A stretch of DNA of 64,000 nucleotides from Pocillopora damicornis. Taxonomy: Eukaryota. Of this stretch, positions 1 to 12,000 are shown in pieces (the stretch's first letter is position 1; the number at the start of each line of letters is the position of its first letter). The stretch is taken from contig NW_020847187.1 of assembly GCF_003704095.1 (NCBI RefSeq), forward strand, positions 310,001-374,000, given 5' to 3'. The position numbers are program-made.

Positions 1-3000
1 AATATGACATGATTAGTAGGAATGTATGCAGATGTAAAGCTTTGTGAGAGTTTCCGAAAAGTCAGATCACTGTTTCACTTAGACAGGAAACTTTTAAAAT
101 CTATGAAGCCTAACAATAGGTAAATAGAATTTAAAAGATAACCTATCTTTTTCATTGTTTTGTTCAGTTTTTGCATTATGTATTCTGAGGCTGATCACTA
201 TGGCTACACACCAATAAAACAGTAAAGACTCTGAATTTCTTCAATTTCTTCAATTGCAATACATTTGACCCTTACACTTTCAGGGTAAAATTGACCTCAA
301 TATCAATATTGTCACTTTTTTCAAATTTTCAACAAAAAGTTGAACTTTTCCTGCTAAGAGTCTGAGTACTTTAAGCACAAGACAGGTGCACTACACAAGC
401 TACTAAAGGCTTGTTTCAACCCAAACAGTGATTGTTTTGATGAGGAGATTACAGCATAAGATTAGGAGCTGCTTTCAAGCATACTCCTTGGTCCTGGTAT
501 TAATTTATTGCTTCCTATGTAAATCAAGAAAAGATGATTCTACAGCAATTTACCATGTCATAACAAAGAAACCCTCACAACCGATGAAATTGTAACTTTA
601 CCGCAAAATTAATTCCTTGGTGTATAATATACACAGAAGCTGTAAGAAAGGGCAATTTACATGATGAAATATTTAAATCACGACAGAATGCTTGTATGCT
701 CGTGAGCGACTGATTAAATTTCTTTTAGAAACGGAAAAAAACGTCTTTCGTGAGATGAAACAAACAGACTTGCCTTCTAGTATAAGGCATGCGCATAAAT
801 GCTATTCTGAAAAAGGATGTTAATAAAATAGTGAACTTCATATCGTAATCTTTGTCTTTTGTGCGCTACTTGTTATTTAGCAATCTGAAAAAAAACAAAA
901 TCCTTGACTCCAAAATGTTTACACTCCAACAGGGAACTAAAGCTTATTTCTATCCTGCATATCTTTACGAAAAGTTGCCTCGTTTCTTTCGCACGTTTCC
1001 CTTAAGACCTCGTCTTTATTTTGGTGCGTAGGCGATCTCTGTATTCAAAGCCTAGTTAGCTTATATTTAACATGTTTCAACCATTATATGTAAATATCGT
1101 TCTGTAAGCAAACCGCTACCAAATAATTCGAGTTTGATAAAAATTCTCGCATGGAGCTTCCGAATGGCGAGACTACAAGTATCAAGGCATTAATAGAAAT
1201 ATACAAAACTAAACAGCGGTTTGTTCGCCATAAAAGCACTTGCCGAAGCAATAAACAATCTTGTGTCGGTACAAATCGATCGATCTAAAATAAGCGGCTA
1301 GCCAGAGCCCGGAAATATTCAGTTAACAGGTTGTTTCGTCAGATCAGCTTTTAAAAGAAAAACGAACATCGCTTTTATCCAAAATCTCAAGCTTGACATT
1401 CTGATAAAACACGACCCGAACTGAACAACCTTCTTCTGAACGATATCTGGTAAAGCTGGGTATAGCTTTACAAAAATAAAAATCAAACCAGCAATCATTG
1501 CTACTTTAATCCGGGCCCAAAATGCTGTAAACTTCAGATCACGGAGAAAGAGATAAATTGAACAGAAGCGTGCTAGGCTCGTGGACGCCCAAACATCAAC
1601 TGGATCTGTGACCATGTCAATATCAGAGAATGCTCGCTACTCGAAAAGTCATGAAGCACAATTAAGATAAATAAGTATCCTTTTCAGCGCGTTTTTACAT
1701 GTTAGAATTAAAGTAAACGTAACTTCAAAAATAAATCGGCCTTAAATGTTCGATCACGGTATAGCGTATATGAAAAAAAAAAAAAGGAAAGAAAGACTCC
1801 TGTTCGATGTTGCAATTTGCCAAATATTAAAACTCAACCAAGCGTGATTCGATCGACATTGTGTATCTTAAGCTCTCGCCGAATGCGGTTTGTTGTCGAT
1901 TTGAAGTGTACAATAAAAACAACAAAGAAAAGATCACAGGAAATGCACAAGAAGTTCATGAAAAGAAGCGCAATCGAGGCTGAGGAAAATTCATGCAATC
2001 AAACGGGTATTATGTGTGCTTGAGCCGAACGACGAAATTAAATTCACGATCGGCCACTTTAACCGAAGGTGTCACTTTTCAAGAACCAAAGAACTACCGA
2101 TAGCCTACACGCACAAACGGTCTATAATTCAAAGCCGACCATCTGAGATCTAACATCCAGCGAACCTCCAGCAACAACGATCGAAAGGAAGATAGATCGT
2201 ATTGCTGACTGAGACAATCACCCCTTCTGTGAGGCGTAATTTTCTTCATATTAGTGTCAGAAGTTCAGGCGCACATTGAAAATTCGTTTTTTCCAGCTAT
2301 CTTGCGTTGGCGTTCCGCGATGGTTTTCAATGACCGCAAATATTGACAACAGGCGGCGGAAAAAAAGTAGCAATCGTCTACAGCCGCACGTATTTTGCGA
2401 TAAAAGGGTTACCAATAACTTTTCGATGACTTTAAAGATCAGTAAAGCTACGAGCGCGCACAATAATCGACACGCTTACTGACAGAGAAATATTCTAAGC
2501 CATCGATCGAGTCCCCGCATATAATAAGGAAACATAAGCACAACAGAATAGAAATCGTCCTTGCCTGGAACTTTTGTTGTGTCTCTTAGGTGGCTGAGAG
2601 GCATCGGTGACCGTTTTGTAGCCTTGTGGCTCAGCTGAAATTCCTTGGCGTTGATTTCTAGTACGAGTTGCTACGGCCGGTTGCAGAACCGAACGATATT
2701 TGTCTAACTCGCTCTCGAGTCGACGGATCAACTCATTTCTCCTTTTCAATTCCTGCTCCAAGGCCAAGATGCGGCTGTCCTTCATTTTCATTTCGGTGTT
2801 CTTCTCTTGGAGGGCCTGCTGCAGCTCTCGCAGACTGCCCATTTTCGCTGTGGTTGCCGCAGTACCCCGCCGAAAACACAAACACCCTGCCTTCTTTTTA
2901 CTCTCAGCTCGACCGCAATGCATCACTCCGCGCGCTTTATCTAATCGCCAATGGAATACTGGGAATTCATTCACCGATATCCTGAGGGTAGTTGAAAAGA

Positions 3001-9000: not shown

Positions 9001-12000
9001 AACTCAGCGTCTAAATATAGAAGAGATGTTTTATTCATTTCTCCACACAGTACCCGTAGCTTGATTAGAGTTATTTTTATAGATCAAGGTGCTTAATGTT
9101 TTTTCACTAGTGACGTAAATTTGCCTACCTCTCAAAAAATGCTTGGGAAAAGAAAAGCTTGTATCTATATAAAATGACCTTTTGAAAGGCCAGTAGAGAA
9201 ATATACGGTCACCAGTCAGGAGAATTTACTATCAGATCTTATATATCAGATATAGTCGAGTATCCTGATCGTGCCCATGCCCCTCTCGCTCCTCATATGT
9301 TTCTAGTTCTTATCGATGCCCGAAACCACACGGCCTAAGGCCTTGTTACGGGCGTTTTCAATAATCGTTCCAAAAAATTAATATGCCTTGAACATCAAAT
9401 CTGATAATTAGGACTCCATGAATCACTAATTTTCTTACCAAACTTTCCGCACATTTGTTCTTTCTTTATAAGAGCGTCAACATGCATTTTGCTGTACGGA
9501 ATCAAGATTCTACCCATTTTTCAATGACGTTTCATGACAACAGCCACTCATCCATTCGTTATCATCTTAAATGTATTGATGGCTTTTTCGGTGAAAAATT
9601 CAAATTACATGTAATTAATTTTCGCAGGTGTAACTTTAAAAATATATATCTCACTATAATTTTTTGGGCGAACCTTCACTTGTTTCATGATAAATGAAAA
9701 ACTTATTTTCGCGTCAGTTCATAAGGTTTCCATGCAAATGGTAAATCTCATTTTGCTTTATTACTTTTAGTGCACAATATCACCTCACCACAAGAACCAA
9801 TATCACTGGCATGACGCTACATTTGTGCGTCGACATGATCTGGTCTGTTCAGTTTGCTAACGATATACTTACGTTCTCCTTCTCTGTCTCTCTCCTGCTT
9901 GGGATTATTCATTGGCGGTGTCTTAGGCCGAGGCGTGTTGTTGTTTGAGTCGCTCCTGAAGAAAGGGGAATTATTTCTAGAATTCCTTGCAACCAGCTTG
10001 AACGCTGGCGAACCAATGTGATCCTGCATCTATGATTCGGTCTGAAATAACAAATGAGTGAGTAAGTACGACAGCGTCATTCGGCGGAACTAAATTAACT
10101 CACCTGGTGGTCGCTTCACAATTCAACCAATAGGACTGTGGACTTTTTCATTTCCTTTAATCAGAGGTTTAACAGAGTATGACAGTTAACATCTTAAACG
10201 TACTGAGAACGCATTATTGGTAGCCTGGTTGTCGAAACGGTAATGATGTGGAAAATGTTTCCCGCATTTGATTGATATTTCTGTCGTGAACTAGGGTCAC
10301 AGGTGCGTTTATAACGAAACTCATCGCTTCGATTGTTATGATGAAACAAGCACACCTCTTTCATCTGCTGCTTTTCTTTTCAAATTAAAAATTTCAGACG
10401 GTGAACGAGACAGTTCATTGAAAAGATGACTATTGGAAGTAATGCGTTTAAAACTTGATAGGCACTAGACGGTCGTGTGACGATTTGCACGACTCAACTT
10501 GCTTCCAATATAACACCTCCCTCAGACCGCCATTAAAACAGATACACACATACACACACGAGTGGACGGATAGATGAACAACAAATCAATAGGAATAAAG
10601 ACATAAAGTAATTCAGTAATCGATATACAGCTACAGTCGAGCCTCTAGTAAACGACCTTCCAAAATATCGACTTTTGGTGGTCGCTTACGGGAGGTTAAA
10701 AGCAATTGATAATCATCTCTGAAAGTGGTCGCTTTTGAGAGGTAGTCGCTTTCGACGGGTTCCAGCGATAGCGATTTGGCTTGAAAACTTTTGGTATTTT
10801 TGAAAAGTGGTCGCTTATGATAGGTGGTAGCTTTTAATACGAGAGGGGGTGGCAAGGGGAGGTTCGACTGTAGTAGTAAAAACTAAAATGAATCAGTTTT
10901 GATCTATGAATAGGATAAGAAAGTGACAAAGTGATCTTTGAAGGTTACGCGGAGTGCCATTGTGCCTGACAATTACGCTTAAGGCTCGCGATGTTTGTCA
11001 AATACATTGACCATTGAGGGACAACGGTTTGCATGAGTAAATTAATGCTTCATTTCCGGACTTCTATTTATAGAGTTTTGTCAATACCAATTAGCAATAA
11101 ACAAAAAACTTTTAACGTTAATTGAAAAAGATGTTTTCCTAAAGAGTCCCAAAAGCGAAGTCTCACGAAAAGATTGTAAAGCTGTCGTTGCAGTATTTGG
11201 TATTGAAAACTTTTTCACTTACGGGAACTCCATTCTGGGACATTGTGACAAACTGATATACAGGAGAGGTCTCAGGCGCAAGTGAATGAATGAACCGTAC
11301 TGGGATCAATTATTTAGAACTGAAACGCTCTTTCCAAGAGCAATGGAAAAGAGGAAAATGTTAAAAAAACAACCGTTAGCGTGGAAGCAGGGTAAGGTAT
11401 GTTACCCTCTCATTGAATTCTACAACAGTGTCCCACCAAATCTGGCGCAGAAGCCCAAACTGCTCTCCGAACATTTTGTAACTAAGATCATTTTATAAAT
11501 TAATTATGCCCTAATCCTCTCTTTTAAGCAATCAAACAAAAATACATACATTGGAGACAAGGTAAAAAGTCCTACTTGAAATATCCGTGATTGCAGGGAA
11601 GACAGCGGACAGAGCGTCAGAGGTCCTTGAGAAATGAAAAGTATCGGATGTGCCTTATTGGCGCATGAACTTGAAAAGCGGGTCAAGTACGTTTGATATT
11701 CGCCCGCAAAAAAGGAATAATAAAGTTGTCAGCATTCGTGCCAAGTTAAATCTCTCATGTCACGAACTGACTGCAATTTTTTTTTGACACTGTTTCTCGA
11801 ACTCAAAAGAAAAGAGGAAACGACAAATTCATGAATGTTTCCTCGATATCAGATCTCCTAAATAGACTTATTTAGGGTCTATGCAAAAAGCAAATAAATA
11901 CAAGAATTGGAAATTCTTATCTCAAGACTTGCTACATGTGAGCAACGATTGTATGACATAGCAATAATACCGGGCAATCGCCAGCTTGGGAGCCGGGGTC

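What the first reader, a model, noticed from the sequence alone, without database searches (positions are those of the whole stretch)
2565..10029. Vertebrate-like alpha/beta alternative first exons of PKG-I in a probable cnidarian
Seen: two separate coiled-coil + pseudosubstrate modules, each ending in a phase-2 donor about 20 residues after SAEP, so they look mutually exclusive onto one shared downstream exon. The distal one is alpha-like (RAQGVSAEP) and the proximal one beta-like (MGSLRELQ...DKYRSV). Established: mammalian PRKG1 makes Ialpha and Ibeta from alternative first exons in this order. Inference: the isoform switch is either very ancient or convergent.
Basis: partly seen in the sequence, partly recalled or inferred. 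Interest (0 to 1): 0.68.

Follow-up and report, generated by a model that had tools for sequence, protein, structure and literature searches.

The report
Coral PKG gene's two alternative N-terminal modules
A stony-coral gene for the cGMP-activated kinase PKG I carries two alternative starting modules that relatives join to the same kinase body, much as mammals make their alpha and beta forms, so this isoform switch probably predates the split of corals and bilaterian animals.

Summary
On the minus strand lie two coiled-coil plus pseudosubstrate modules. The distal one has two coding exons (10029-9873, 8877-8442). The proximal one is a single exon (2842 or 2923 to 2565). Both end in phase 2.

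The shared next exon is not in the window. Mutual exclusivity therefore rests on relatives. In Porites lutea, isoforms X3 (distal type) and X5 (proximal type) share an identical 594-residue body. None of the 53 proteins examined carries both modules.

The proximal module is clearly beta-like: human PKG I-beta zipper 3NMD scores E 1.5e-11. The distal module is alpha-like only in its pseudosubstrate, RAQGVS against RAQGIS. Its coil is about 46 residues longer and matches no PKG zipper. The two modules are paralogous end to end (hhalign 97.1%).

The variable/common boundary falls at the same residue as in mammals (PMC9417419). RefSeq already annotates such isoforms in anthozoans, and the PRKG1 exon pair was traced to a beetle in 2021 (PMC8373072). 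This is a new member of a known kind, of moderate interest.

The parts
9873..10029 (-). Distal module, coding exon A1. It runs from the ATG (MQDHIGSPAFKLV...) to the donor GTAAGT, phase 1. It encodes 52 codons plus 1 nt of a Ser/Asn/Pro-rich, non-coil leader.
   Evidence: tblastn of P0004 and P0006 aligns residues 1-50/55 here at 92% and 82%. There is no Pfam match.
8442..8877 (-). Distal module, coding exon A2. It holds a long coiled coil, the pseudosubstrate and a linker, and ends in the donor AAG|GTATGT, phase 2.
   Evidence: In one search, 12 of 12 hits at E<=0.001 (1037 candidates) are anthozoan proteins with cNMP-binding and kinase domains; 9 are named cGMP-dependent protein kinase 1(-like).
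8549..8863 (-). Coiled-coil part of exon A2. About 105 residues contain no Pro or Gly, and the heptad register shifts near the middle.
8588..8725 (-). Stretch of 46 residues in the distal coil that has no counterpart in the proximal (beta-like) module.
   Evidence: hhalign of the two module families. Distal 9-46 aligns with proximal 3-40 and distal 93-141 with proximal 41-93. Residues 47-92 are unaligned.
8507..8524 (-). Distal pseudosubstrate RAQGVS, followed by AEP.
   Evidence: The reference motifs RAQGIS, KRQAIS and AKAGVS come from passages of PMC9417419.
2565..2923 (-). Proximal module in a single exon. The start codon is either 2923 (MHCGRAESKKKAGCLCFRRG..., a Cys-rich extension) or 2842 (MGSLRELQ). 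It ends in phase 2 at a GC donor, CAG|GCAAGG.
   Evidence: One search gave 25 hits at E<=0.001 among 244 candidates. tblastn of P0020 aligns residues 1-121 to 2923-2564 at 87%.
2678..2839 (-). Beta-type leucine zipper (residues 2-55 counted from MGSL).
   Evidence: 3NMD (human PKG I-beta zipper) scores E 1.5e-11, with 31 of 54 residues identical by my count on the printed alignment. The family profile scores E 1.4e-16. Pfam PF16808 scores E 2e-6 and 27.7 bits, below its 35-bit cut-off.
2636..2653 (-). Proximal pseudosubstrate QRQGIS, followed by AEP. Arg sits at P-2 and P-5, as in I-beta.
   Evidence: The I-beta positions come from PMC9417419.
2563..2564 (-). GC dinucleotide of the proximal donor. 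It appears conserved, because read-through gene models of other corals continue ...SSR-Q-G or ...R-Q-A after the junction.
   Evidence: The read-through models are P0016, P0017, P0018, P0021 and P0029. The conservation is inferred from those translations.
2981..2983 (-). Candidate 3' splice site TCTCTTTTCAACTACCCTCAG|G, 58 nt upstream of ATG 2923. It would be in frame with a phase-2 donor. Similarity to other corals' models begins just downstream of it.
   Evidence: This is sequence-level only; use of the site is not shown.
10042..10103 (-). Candidate 62-nt leader intron (CCAG|GTGAGT ... TTATTTCAG|A) just upstream of the distal ATG. If real, an untranslated leader exon ends at 10104.
   Evidence: This is sequence-level only.

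Best explanation
The stretch is the 5' end of a single PKG I-type (cGMP-dependent protein kinase 1) gene of a scleractinian coral, on the minus strand.

It carries two paralogous N-terminal coding modules in tandem. Each supplies its own start codon, a dimerising coiled coil, an autoinhibitory pseudosubstrate and a linker. Each ends in a phase-2 donor.

One module or the other is joined to the first common exon (SKELIKDAILDNDF...), which lies beyond coordinate 1. The result is two kinases with the same cGMP-binding and catalytic body but different targeting and dimerisation zippers and different autoinhibitory sequences.

The proximal module is the orthologue of the vertebrate I-beta exon. The distal module takes the place of I-alpha: it is upstream and has an RAQG[IV]S pseudosubstrate. 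Its zipper, however, is about 6.5 heptads longer, and it has an extra leader exon.

Shown: exon anatomy, phases, paralogy of the modules, beta-likeness, position of the junction, and separate joining in relatives.
Inferred: use in this species, dimerisation, different cGMP sensitivity or partners, and common descent of the distal module with I-alpha.
For: Anatomy and phases.

One gene, not two: no cNMP-binding or kinase exon lies anywhere in the window, and only 2 SAEP motifs occur.

Separate joining in relatives:
- All 12 of 12 distal-type hits run from the distal tail straight into SK[ED]LIK.
- 8 of the 25 proximal-type hits matched the strict junction motif. With the looser junction and start patterns, all 13 full-length hits that I selected from the 25 were parsed; the other 12 were not scanned there.
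- Porites lutea isoforms X3 and X5 are identical over the 594 residues after the junction.
- Montipora foliosa X4 and M. capricornis X2 are identical over 587 of 587 residues.
- P0004 and P0022 come from contigs of 3,646 and 4,752 nt, yet encode whole proteins of 781 and 679 aa. They must therefore derive from spliced RNA.
- 0 of 53 proteins examined carry both modules.

Paralogy of the modules:
- hhalign gives probability 97.1% and E 5.7e-11 over 86 collinear columns.
- BLASTP gives E 4e-7.
- The Smith-Waterman score is 93, against a shuffle mean of 35 and sd 6.3. None of 2000 shuffles reaches it.

Beta-likeness.

Junction position: the Porites X5 alignment with human I-beta 7LV3 is gapless from the pseudosubstrate to beyond the junction into CNB-A. 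R|SKELIK falls on Q|SKDLIK, which is the first of the 582 common residues (PMC9417419).

Alpha-like features:
- RAQGVS is 5 of 6 identical to I-alpha, 2 of 6 to I-beta and 3 of 6 to PKG II.
- The Nematostella distal tail RKFSKSDR is 6 of 8 identical to RKFTKSER of I-alpha constructs 3SHR, 7SSB and 7MBJ.

Purifying selection on both modules: window against sea-anemone-grade sequences is 69-74% identical for the distal module and 77% for the proximal one.
Against: - There is no RNA evidence from this species, and the common exon is outside the window. Mutual exclusivity here is by analogy with relatives.
- The distal coil has no detectable likeness to the I-alpha zipper, either as a single sequence or as an 8-sequence profile at E up to 10.
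- The window's own distal tail, KHCPKKP(R), matches I-alpha at only 2 of 8 positions and I-beta at 3 of 8.
- The proximal pseudosubstrate QRQGIS is equally near I-alpha and I-beta (4 of 6 each).
- A good candidate acceptor at 2981 would be in frame with the distal donor. A joined transcript, or entry into the proximal exon from an upstream leader, cannot be excluded from the DNA.
- Separate promoters are not shown.
- The Pfam PF16808 match is below its curated cut-off.
Confidence: 0.82

Rival explanations
1. Independent origin. The ancestor had a single beta-like first coding exon. Cnidarians duplicated it and lengthened the copy, and bilaterians separately made I-alpha. On this reading, the likeness of the distal module to I-alpha (the RAQGxS motif and the upstream position) is convergent or is a retained ancestral state.
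For: - The distal coil matches no I-alpha zipper.
- The I-alpha zipper is weakly nearer to the coral proximal family: 1ZXA E 0.0042, 4R4L E 0.063.
- The window's distal tail is not alpha-like.
- The distal module has a 46-residue insertion and an extra exon that I-alpha lacks, given that I-alpha's N-terminal region is 89 residues.
Against: - The pseudosubstrate is 5 of 6 identical to I-alpha, with the same register of the basic residue.
- The tail RKFSKSDR in Nematostella and RHYTKSER in Montipora are each 6 of 8 identical to RKFTKSER.
- The junction residue is the same.
- The two coral modules are only about 31% identical, which fits an old duplication.
- Passages of PMC8373072 report equivalent PRKG1 exons in a beetle, so the pair is at least bilaterian in age.
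Confidence: 0.33
2. One promoter with mutually exclusive splicing. Both modules are entered from a common untranslated leader upstream of 10104, so the choice is made by the spliceosome and not by promoter use. The proximal exon would then be an internal exon with its own ATG.
For: - There is a candidate acceptor with an 80% pyrimidine tract at 2981, 58 nt before ATG 2923.
- There is a candidate 62-nt leader intron before the distal ATG.
- In Hydractinia, isoform X1 has 32 more N-terminal residues in front of the same MGSLKDLQ that starts X2. In hydrozoans, therefore, sequence upstream of that ATG can be coding. Whether the extra residues come from a separate upstream exon was not seen.
- Similarity of Montipora capricornis X2 to the window starts at 2974, just after the candidate acceptor.
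Against: - No transcript data support it.
- The Acropora models extend upstream of the homologous point without a break there (P0019 and P0024).
- Mammalian I-alpha and I-beta, and the fly foraging gene, use separate promoters. For the fly this comes from PMC6067849 passages; for mammals it is recalled.
- The candidate sites are consensus matches only.
Confidence: 0.25
3. Both modules are spliced into one mRNA, giving a kinase with two zippers and two pseudosubstrates.
For: The acceptor candidate at 2981 is in frame with the phase-2 donor at 8442, and the frame is open from 3034 to the proximal ATG.
Against: - 0 of 53 proteins examined carry both modules.
- All 12 of 12 distal-type proteins go straight to the common exon.
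- RefSeq models for Porites lutea list the two types as separate isoforms.
Confidence: 0.04
4. The two modules belong to two tandem PKG genes.
For: None beyond the presence of two complete N-terminal modules.
Against: - No cNMP-binding or kinase exon lies between 8441 and 2924, or anywhere else in the window.
- Porites lutea X3 and X5 share an identical 594-residue body and are named isoforms of one gene.
Confidence: 0.01

Closest known systems
Mammalian PRKG1 isoforms I-alpha and I-beta (alternative N-terminal exons)
   Same: - There are two alternative N-terminal regions, each with a zipper and a pseudosubstrate, on one common body. The common body is 582 residues in mammals and 587 in the nearest coral proteins (PMC9417419 passages).
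- The boundary falls at the same aligned residue.
- The proximal module is 31 of 54 identical to the human I-beta zipper.
- The distal pseudosubstrate is 5 of 6 identical to I-alpha.
   Different: - The distal module has 198 residues in two coding exons, against 89 residues for I-alpha. Its coil is about 46 residues longer and matches no I-alpha zipper.
- The coral proximal exon can start 27 codons earlier, with a Cys-rich extension (MHCGR...CLCF) that 3NMD/I-beta does not show.
- In the alignment, the coral has LALEQELKRRNE where human I-beta has DELELELDQKDE, so the acidic face is not kept.
- The mammalian exon order (alpha upstream) is recalled and was not checked by any search.
RefSeq-annotated 'cGMP-dependent protein kinase 1-like' isoforms of other anthozoans (Porites lutea X1-X5, Orbicella faveolata X2, Montipora, Acropora muricata X7, Nematostella vectensis X2, Actinia tenebrosa X1)
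   Same: They show the same two module types, 69-96% (distal) and 77-91% (proximal) identical to the window's, joined to the same exon.
   Different: They are automatic annotations of other species. The window's species has no named protein among the hits. Its nearest full-length relatives (P0004 at 97%, P0022 at 90%) are unnamed.
Drosophila foraging (PKG) gene with four promoters
   Same: One kinase body carries several alternative N-terminal dimerisation and regulatory regions. The gene has 21 transcripts and 9 protein isoforms (PMC6067849 passages).
   Different: No sequence comparison with the fly exons could be made here. The number of modules also differs: two in the window.
PRKG1 tandem-exon-duplication substitution traced to a beetle (Martinez-Gomez et al., NAR 2021, PMC8373072)
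   Same: The paper treats the PRKG1 N-terminal exon pair as homologous duplicated exons. It reports equivalent exons in 'Taurus scarab', which makes the pair older than 670 million years (passages). The coral pair is likewise homologous end to end.
   Different: In the main text the term 'cnidaria' occurs 0 times. The supplements, which may list the species examined, are closed.
Vertebrate PKG II
   Same: The pseudosubstrate has Val at P+1: AKAGVS against RAQGVS, 3 of 6 identical.
   Different: No PKG II zipper chain appeared in the PDB searches with the distal module. In the search with part of the Nematostella distal-type protein, PKG I chains scored E 1e-63 and PKG II (5C6C) scored E 2e-34.

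Membership tests
[quoted passage not shown] | N-terminal leucine zipper / coiled coil | tested here: met
   Heptad periodicity is far above shuffles for both modules. The proximal module matches the I-beta zipper 3NMD at E 1.5e-11. Pfam PF16808 scores E 2e-6 but lies below its cut-off.
[quoted passage not shown] | Autoinhibitory pseudosubstrate with Gly or Ala at P0, followed by [IV]SAEP | tested here: met
   RAQGVSAEP at 8524-8498 and QRQGISAEP at 2653-2627. The motif definition is from PMC9417419.
[quoted passage not shown] | Two cyclic-nucleotide-binding domains and an AGC kinase domain downstream | not testable with these tools
   These exons lie outside the window. Proteins whose N-termini are 84-97% identical to the window's modules carry PF00027 and PF00069, and Porites lutea X5 aligns with human I-beta 7LV3 at E 2.8e-275.
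PRKG1-type alternative N-terminal exons (alpha/beta switch) | Two homologous N-terminal coding modules in tandem, each with a start codon | tested here: met
   hhalign gives 97.1% probability and E 5.7e-11, collinear. The ATGs are at 10029 and at 2842/2923.
PRKG1-type alternative N-terminal exons (alpha/beta switch) | Both modules end in the same intron phase, at the same point of the protein as in mammals | tested here: met
   Both end in phase 2. The boundary aligns with the first of the 582 common mammalian residues. The intron phase of the mammalian gene itself was not checked.
PRKG1-type alternative N-terminal exons (alpha/beta switch) | Mutually exclusive joining to one common exon | tested here: inconclusive
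   In this genome it is not testable, because the common exon is outside the window and there is no RNA. In relatives it is met: Porites lutea X3 and X5 have an identical 594-residue body, and 0 of 53 proteins carry both modules.
PRKG1-type alternative N-terminal exons (alpha/beta switch) | A separate promoter for each module | not testable with these tools
   Only consensus-level candidate splice sites were seen upstream of both ATGs.
I-beta-type N-terminus | Sequence likeness of zipper and pseudosubstrate register to vertebrate I-beta | tested here: met
   3NMD scores E 1.5e-11 for the single sequence and 1.4e-16 for the profile. Arg sits at P-2 and P-5 as in I-beta. The alignment to 7LV3 is gapless through the linker.
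I-alpha-type N-terminus | Sequence likeness of zipper, pseudosubstrate and linker to vertebrate I-alpha | tested here: inconclusive
   The pseudosubstrate is 5 of 6 identical. The tail is 6 of 8 identical in Nematostella and Montipora but 2 of 8 in the window. The zipper gives no match at E up to 10.

The most novel reading that the evidence does not exclude
The whole PRKG1 alpha/beta device was already in place in the common ancestor of cnidarians and bilaterians. That device comprises two duplicated N-terminal modules in the order alpha-type then beta-type, each with its own pseudosubstrate register, joined in phase 2 to the same residue of the common body. If so, it is one of the oldest conserved alternative-isoform switches known, older than the bilaterian age given in print. 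The long-zipper distal module would then be the ancestral form of I-alpha, which bilaterians shortened.
Probability: 0.55. Interest if true: 0.55.

Novelty: new member of a known kind. Interest (0 to 1): 0.4.

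Why it matters
In mammals, the I-alpha and I-beta N-termini set cGMP sensitivity and decide which partners the kinase meets. Whether that division of labour is a vertebrate refinement or an old animal invention bears on how NO/cGMP signalling was first wired.

A coral gene with a beta exon 57% identical to the human zipper, plus a second upstream module with the alpha-type pseudosubstrate and the same junction residue, moves the likely origin of the switch below Bilateria.

It also gives experimenters a simple system (corals, Nematostella) for asking what the two forms do.

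The gain is limited. The isoforms are already in RefSeq for several anthozoans, and the exon pair was already known to be very old.

Tried and rejected
Sequence and structure searches that led nowhere:
- PDB with the distal module as a single sequence, as an 8-sequence profile and as its last 51 residues. No PKG chain was found, so the alpha-likeness of the coil could not be supported.
- Whole-library phmmer with the distal exon. It gave 13 hits at E<=0.001. Eleven are module fragments and 2 (P0051, P0052) are unrelated repeat proteins. None has a name, so the lineage of the divergent P0049, P0050 and P0053 type (RARAKGISAEP) stays unknown.
- A search for full-length carriers of P0049 found none among 1958 candidates.
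- TATA-like motifs upstream of both ATGs: none found with the pattern used.
- Rfam: 0 matches at gathering score.

No fold or dimer test was made.

Literature:
- Eight searches listed no paper on cnidarian PKG N-terminal exons and none giving the order of the mammalian first exons.
- The library holds only open PMC papers and bioRxiv preprints.
- Passages read in PMC12608923 and in the bioRxiv preprint 10.64898/2026.09.15.751659 contained nothing on PKG isoforms.
- PMC8846931 was seen only as a search listing.

Considered and rejected:
- Two tandem genes.
- Antisense ORFs at 2655-3017(+) and 8478-8900(+). These are frames that stay open opposite coiled-coil codons. They were not searched.

Full report
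**What is in the sequence**

The finding lies on the minus strand. No N run falls in it; the three runs are at 22836-22854, 34660-34759 and 42405-42414. Nothing in the window was taken for human.

The distal module has two coding exons:
- Exon A1 runs from the ATG at 10029 (a TAG stop sits directly upstream) to 9873. Its donor is GGAGAAC|GTAAGT, phase 1.
- Exon A2 runs from 8877 (acceptor AACAACAG|G) to 8442. Its donor is CCAAG|GTATGT.
- Together they are 593 nt, so the module ends in phase 2.

The proximal module is one exon ending at 2565, also in phase 2. Its donor is GC (CAG|GCAAGG), not GT.

Each exon was translated and searched on its own, and the joined step was left out. The A1/A2 junction reads ...REGE-R-RAAALNLEW, which is exactly what the 97%-identical protein P0004 shows.

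SAEP lies 19 residues (distal) and 21 residues (proximal) before the junction. Only these two [IV]SAEP motifs occur in all six frames of the window.

Both modules have strong heptad periodicity. Windows with at least 6 of 8 a/d positions hydrophobic number 59 of 117 (distal) and 25 of 65 (proximal). None of 1000 shuffles reaches either value.

The 'shared downstream exon' is not in the window. tblastn with five full-length coral PKGs found only the N-terminal modules and nothing in 1-2564. Mutual exclusivity therefore cannot be read from this DNA.

**Evidence from relatives**

The distal exon A2 found 12 proteins at E<=0.001 among 1037 candidates:
- All 12 have cNMP-binding and kinase domains.
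- 11 carry an anthozoan organism name.
- 9 are named cGMP-dependent protein kinase 1(-like), among them Porites lutea X1-X4, Orbicella faveolata X2 and Nematostella vectensis X2.

The proximal exon found 25 among 244 candidates. Eight are named, including Porites lutea X5, Acropora muricata X7, Hydractinia X1/X2 and Clytia.

How the modules join in those proteins:
- In all 12 distal-type proteins the module runs straight into SK[ED]LIK[ED]AILDNDF.
- Porites lutea X3 (distal type) and X5 (proximal type) are identical over the 594 residues after the junction.
- Montipora foliosa X4 and M. capricornis X2 are identical over 587 of 587 residues.
- P0004 and P0022 come from contigs of only 3.6 and 4.8 kb, yet encode complete proteins. 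They must be spliced RNA-derived.

The tandem-gene reading fails, because no second kinase body lies between the modules.

**Relation of the two modules to each other**

Profile-profile comparison of 15 distal-type and 14 proximal-type modules gives probability 97.1% and E 5.7e-11 over 86 collinear columns. Distal 9-46 aligns with proximal 3-40. Then 46 distal residues have no partner. Then distal 93-141 aligns with proximal 41-93, which includes the pseudosubstrate and the tail.

BLASTP of the two window exons gives E 4e-7 at 31% identity. None of 2000 shuffles reaches the observed Smith-Waterman score. Shuffling destroys heptads, so this test is lenient.

The modules are therefore paralogous end to end, as expected of a tandem exon duplication. 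The distal coil is about 6.5 heptads longer.

**Relation to the vertebrate forms**

The proximal module is plainly beta-type:
- The human I-beta zipper 3NMD scores E 1.5e-11, with 31 of 54 residues identical by my count.
- The family profile scores E 1.4e-16.
- Porites X5 aligns with human I-beta 7LV3 without a gap from the pseudosubstrate to beyond the junction into CNB-A.

In that alignment the coral boundary R|SKELIK falls on Q|SKDLIK at chain position 36 of 617. That position is the first of the 582 residues that PMC9417419 (passages) says are common to I-alpha and I-beta. The variable/common boundary is therefore at the same residue in coral and mammal.

The same paper gives the pseudosubstrates RAQGIS (I-alpha), KRQAIS (I-beta) and AKAGVS (II):
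- The distal RAQGVS matches them at 5, 2 and 3 of 6 positions. It has Arg at P-3 and Ala at P-2, like I-alpha.
- The proximal QRQGIS matches I-alpha and I-beta at 4 of 6 each. It has Arg at P-2 and P-5, as described for I-beta.

The tail before the junction gives mixed results:
- It is alpha-like in Nematostella. RKFSKSDR is 6 of 8 identical to RKFTKSER of I-alpha constructs 3SHR, 7SSB and 7MBJ.
- It is alpha-like in Montipora (RHYTKSER).
- It is not alpha-like in the window itself. KHCPKKP(R) is 2 of 8 identical to I-alpha and 3 of 8 to I-beta.

The distal coil matches no PKG zipper in the PDB, whether searched as a single sequence, as a profile at E up to 10, or as its last 51 residues. The I-alpha zipper is weakly nearer to the proximal family (1ZXA, E 0.0042).

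'Alpha-like' thus rests on the autoinhibitory segment and on position, not on the zipper.

**How it most likely works**

One gene yields two kinases with the same cGMP-binding and catalytic body and different N-termini.

By analogy with PKG I (PMC9417419 passages):
- The coil dimerises the enzyme and selects partners.
- The pseudosubstrate blocks the catalytic cleft until cGMP binds.
- Different pseudosubstrates and linkers give different activation thresholds.

These functional steps are inferred. No fold or dimer prediction could be run.

Whether the choice is made by two promoters or by splicing from a common leader is open:
- A candidate 62-nt leader intron lies just upstream of the distal ATG (10103-10042).
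- A good candidate acceptor lies at 2981, 58 nt before the proximal ATG at 2923. It would be in frame with the distal donor.
- In Hydractinia, isoform X1 has 32 more residues in front of the same MGSLKDLQ that starts X2. Sequence upstream of that ATG can therefore be coding.

**What is known already**

- RefSeq already lists both isoform types for several anthozoans.
- Passages of PMC8373072 count PRKG1 among tandem-exon-duplication substitutions with equivalent exons in a beetle, hence older than 670 million years. The word 'cnidaria' does not occur in its main text, and its supplements are closed.
- The fly foraging gene has four promoters and nine protein isoforms on one kinase domain (PMC6067849 passages).
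- Eight literature searches listed no paper on cnidarian PKG N-terminal exons.
- The mammalian exon order (alpha upstream of beta) is recalled and was not confirmed by any search.

**Verdict**

These are alternative N-terminal modules of one PKG I gene. The beta identity is firm and the junction is homologous to the mammalian one. The alpha identity is only partial.

Common descent of the whole switch from the cnidarian-bilaterian ancestor is the more economical reading, at about 0.55. Independent duplication is not excluded, at about 0.33.

This is a new member of a known kind, of moderate interest.

Noticed in passing
window 2843-2923 (-): An in-frame 27-codon extension, MHCGRAESKKKAGCLCFRRGTAATTAK, lies upstream of MGSLRELQ. 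The MHCGR...C[LS]CFRRG form is present in 10 of the 25 proximal-type hits. P0028 has a variant, MLCGG...CLCFHR. The clustered cysteines suggest a lipid (palmitoyl) anchor; that function is my inference.
   Followed up: partly
window 2563-2564 (-): The proximal exon uses a GC donor (CAG|GCAAGG). Read-through gene models of five other corals continue R-Q-G or R-Q-A after the junction, which implies that the GC is conserved.
   Followed up: partly
window 2924-2983 (-): The stretch ...FPVFHW...ARGV before MHCGR is conserved in frame in other corals' models as (I/L)IPVF.W, with whole-codon indels. A strong candidate acceptor sits at 2981. It could be coding, 5'UTR or a splice signal; this is unresolved.
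   Followed up: partly
window 10042-10103 (-): A candidate 62-nt intron (GTGAGT...TTATTTCAG) lies immediately upstream of the distal ATG. The ATG exon may therefore not be the first exon.
   Followed up: no
proteins P0049, P0050, P0053 (no locus): These are unnamed fragments with a long coil, the motif RARAKGISAEP and the tail FFF[HQ]KRQR. They are 30-33% identical to the window's distal module. They are a divergent lineage of the distal type. Their organism is unknown, and no full-length carrier was found.
   Followed up: partly
proteins P0032, P0033, P0034 (Hydractinia, Clytia): Hydrozoan beta-type isoforms occur with and without an N-terminal MFKFFH...Ser/Gly-rich extension. Its FKF start faintly recalls the (A/V)FK(L/F) start of the anthozoan leader exon A1.
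   Followed up: no
window 24746-26563 (-): An uninterrupted 606-codon frame. Its last 374 residues match the ERG4/ERG24 sterol reductase family at E 3.1e-107. The N-terminal part is built of 24-nt tandem repeats at 26179-26362. It looks like an intronless sterol-reductase gene with a repeat-bearing N-terminus.
   Followed up: partly
window 42442-43218 (-): An open frame of 259 codons with a haloacid-dehalogenase-like hydrolase match at E 6.7e-8. It starts 28 bases from the N run at 42405-42414.
   Followed up: no
window 38778-38892: A perfect 12-nt tandem repeat, TGCACACTTGTT, in 9.6 copies.
   Followed up: no
protein P0041 (no locus): A 191-residue database protein, 99% identical to the window's distal exon, that reads on through the donor into the intron. 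It is a gene-prediction artefact from the same or a very close genome.
   Followed up: no
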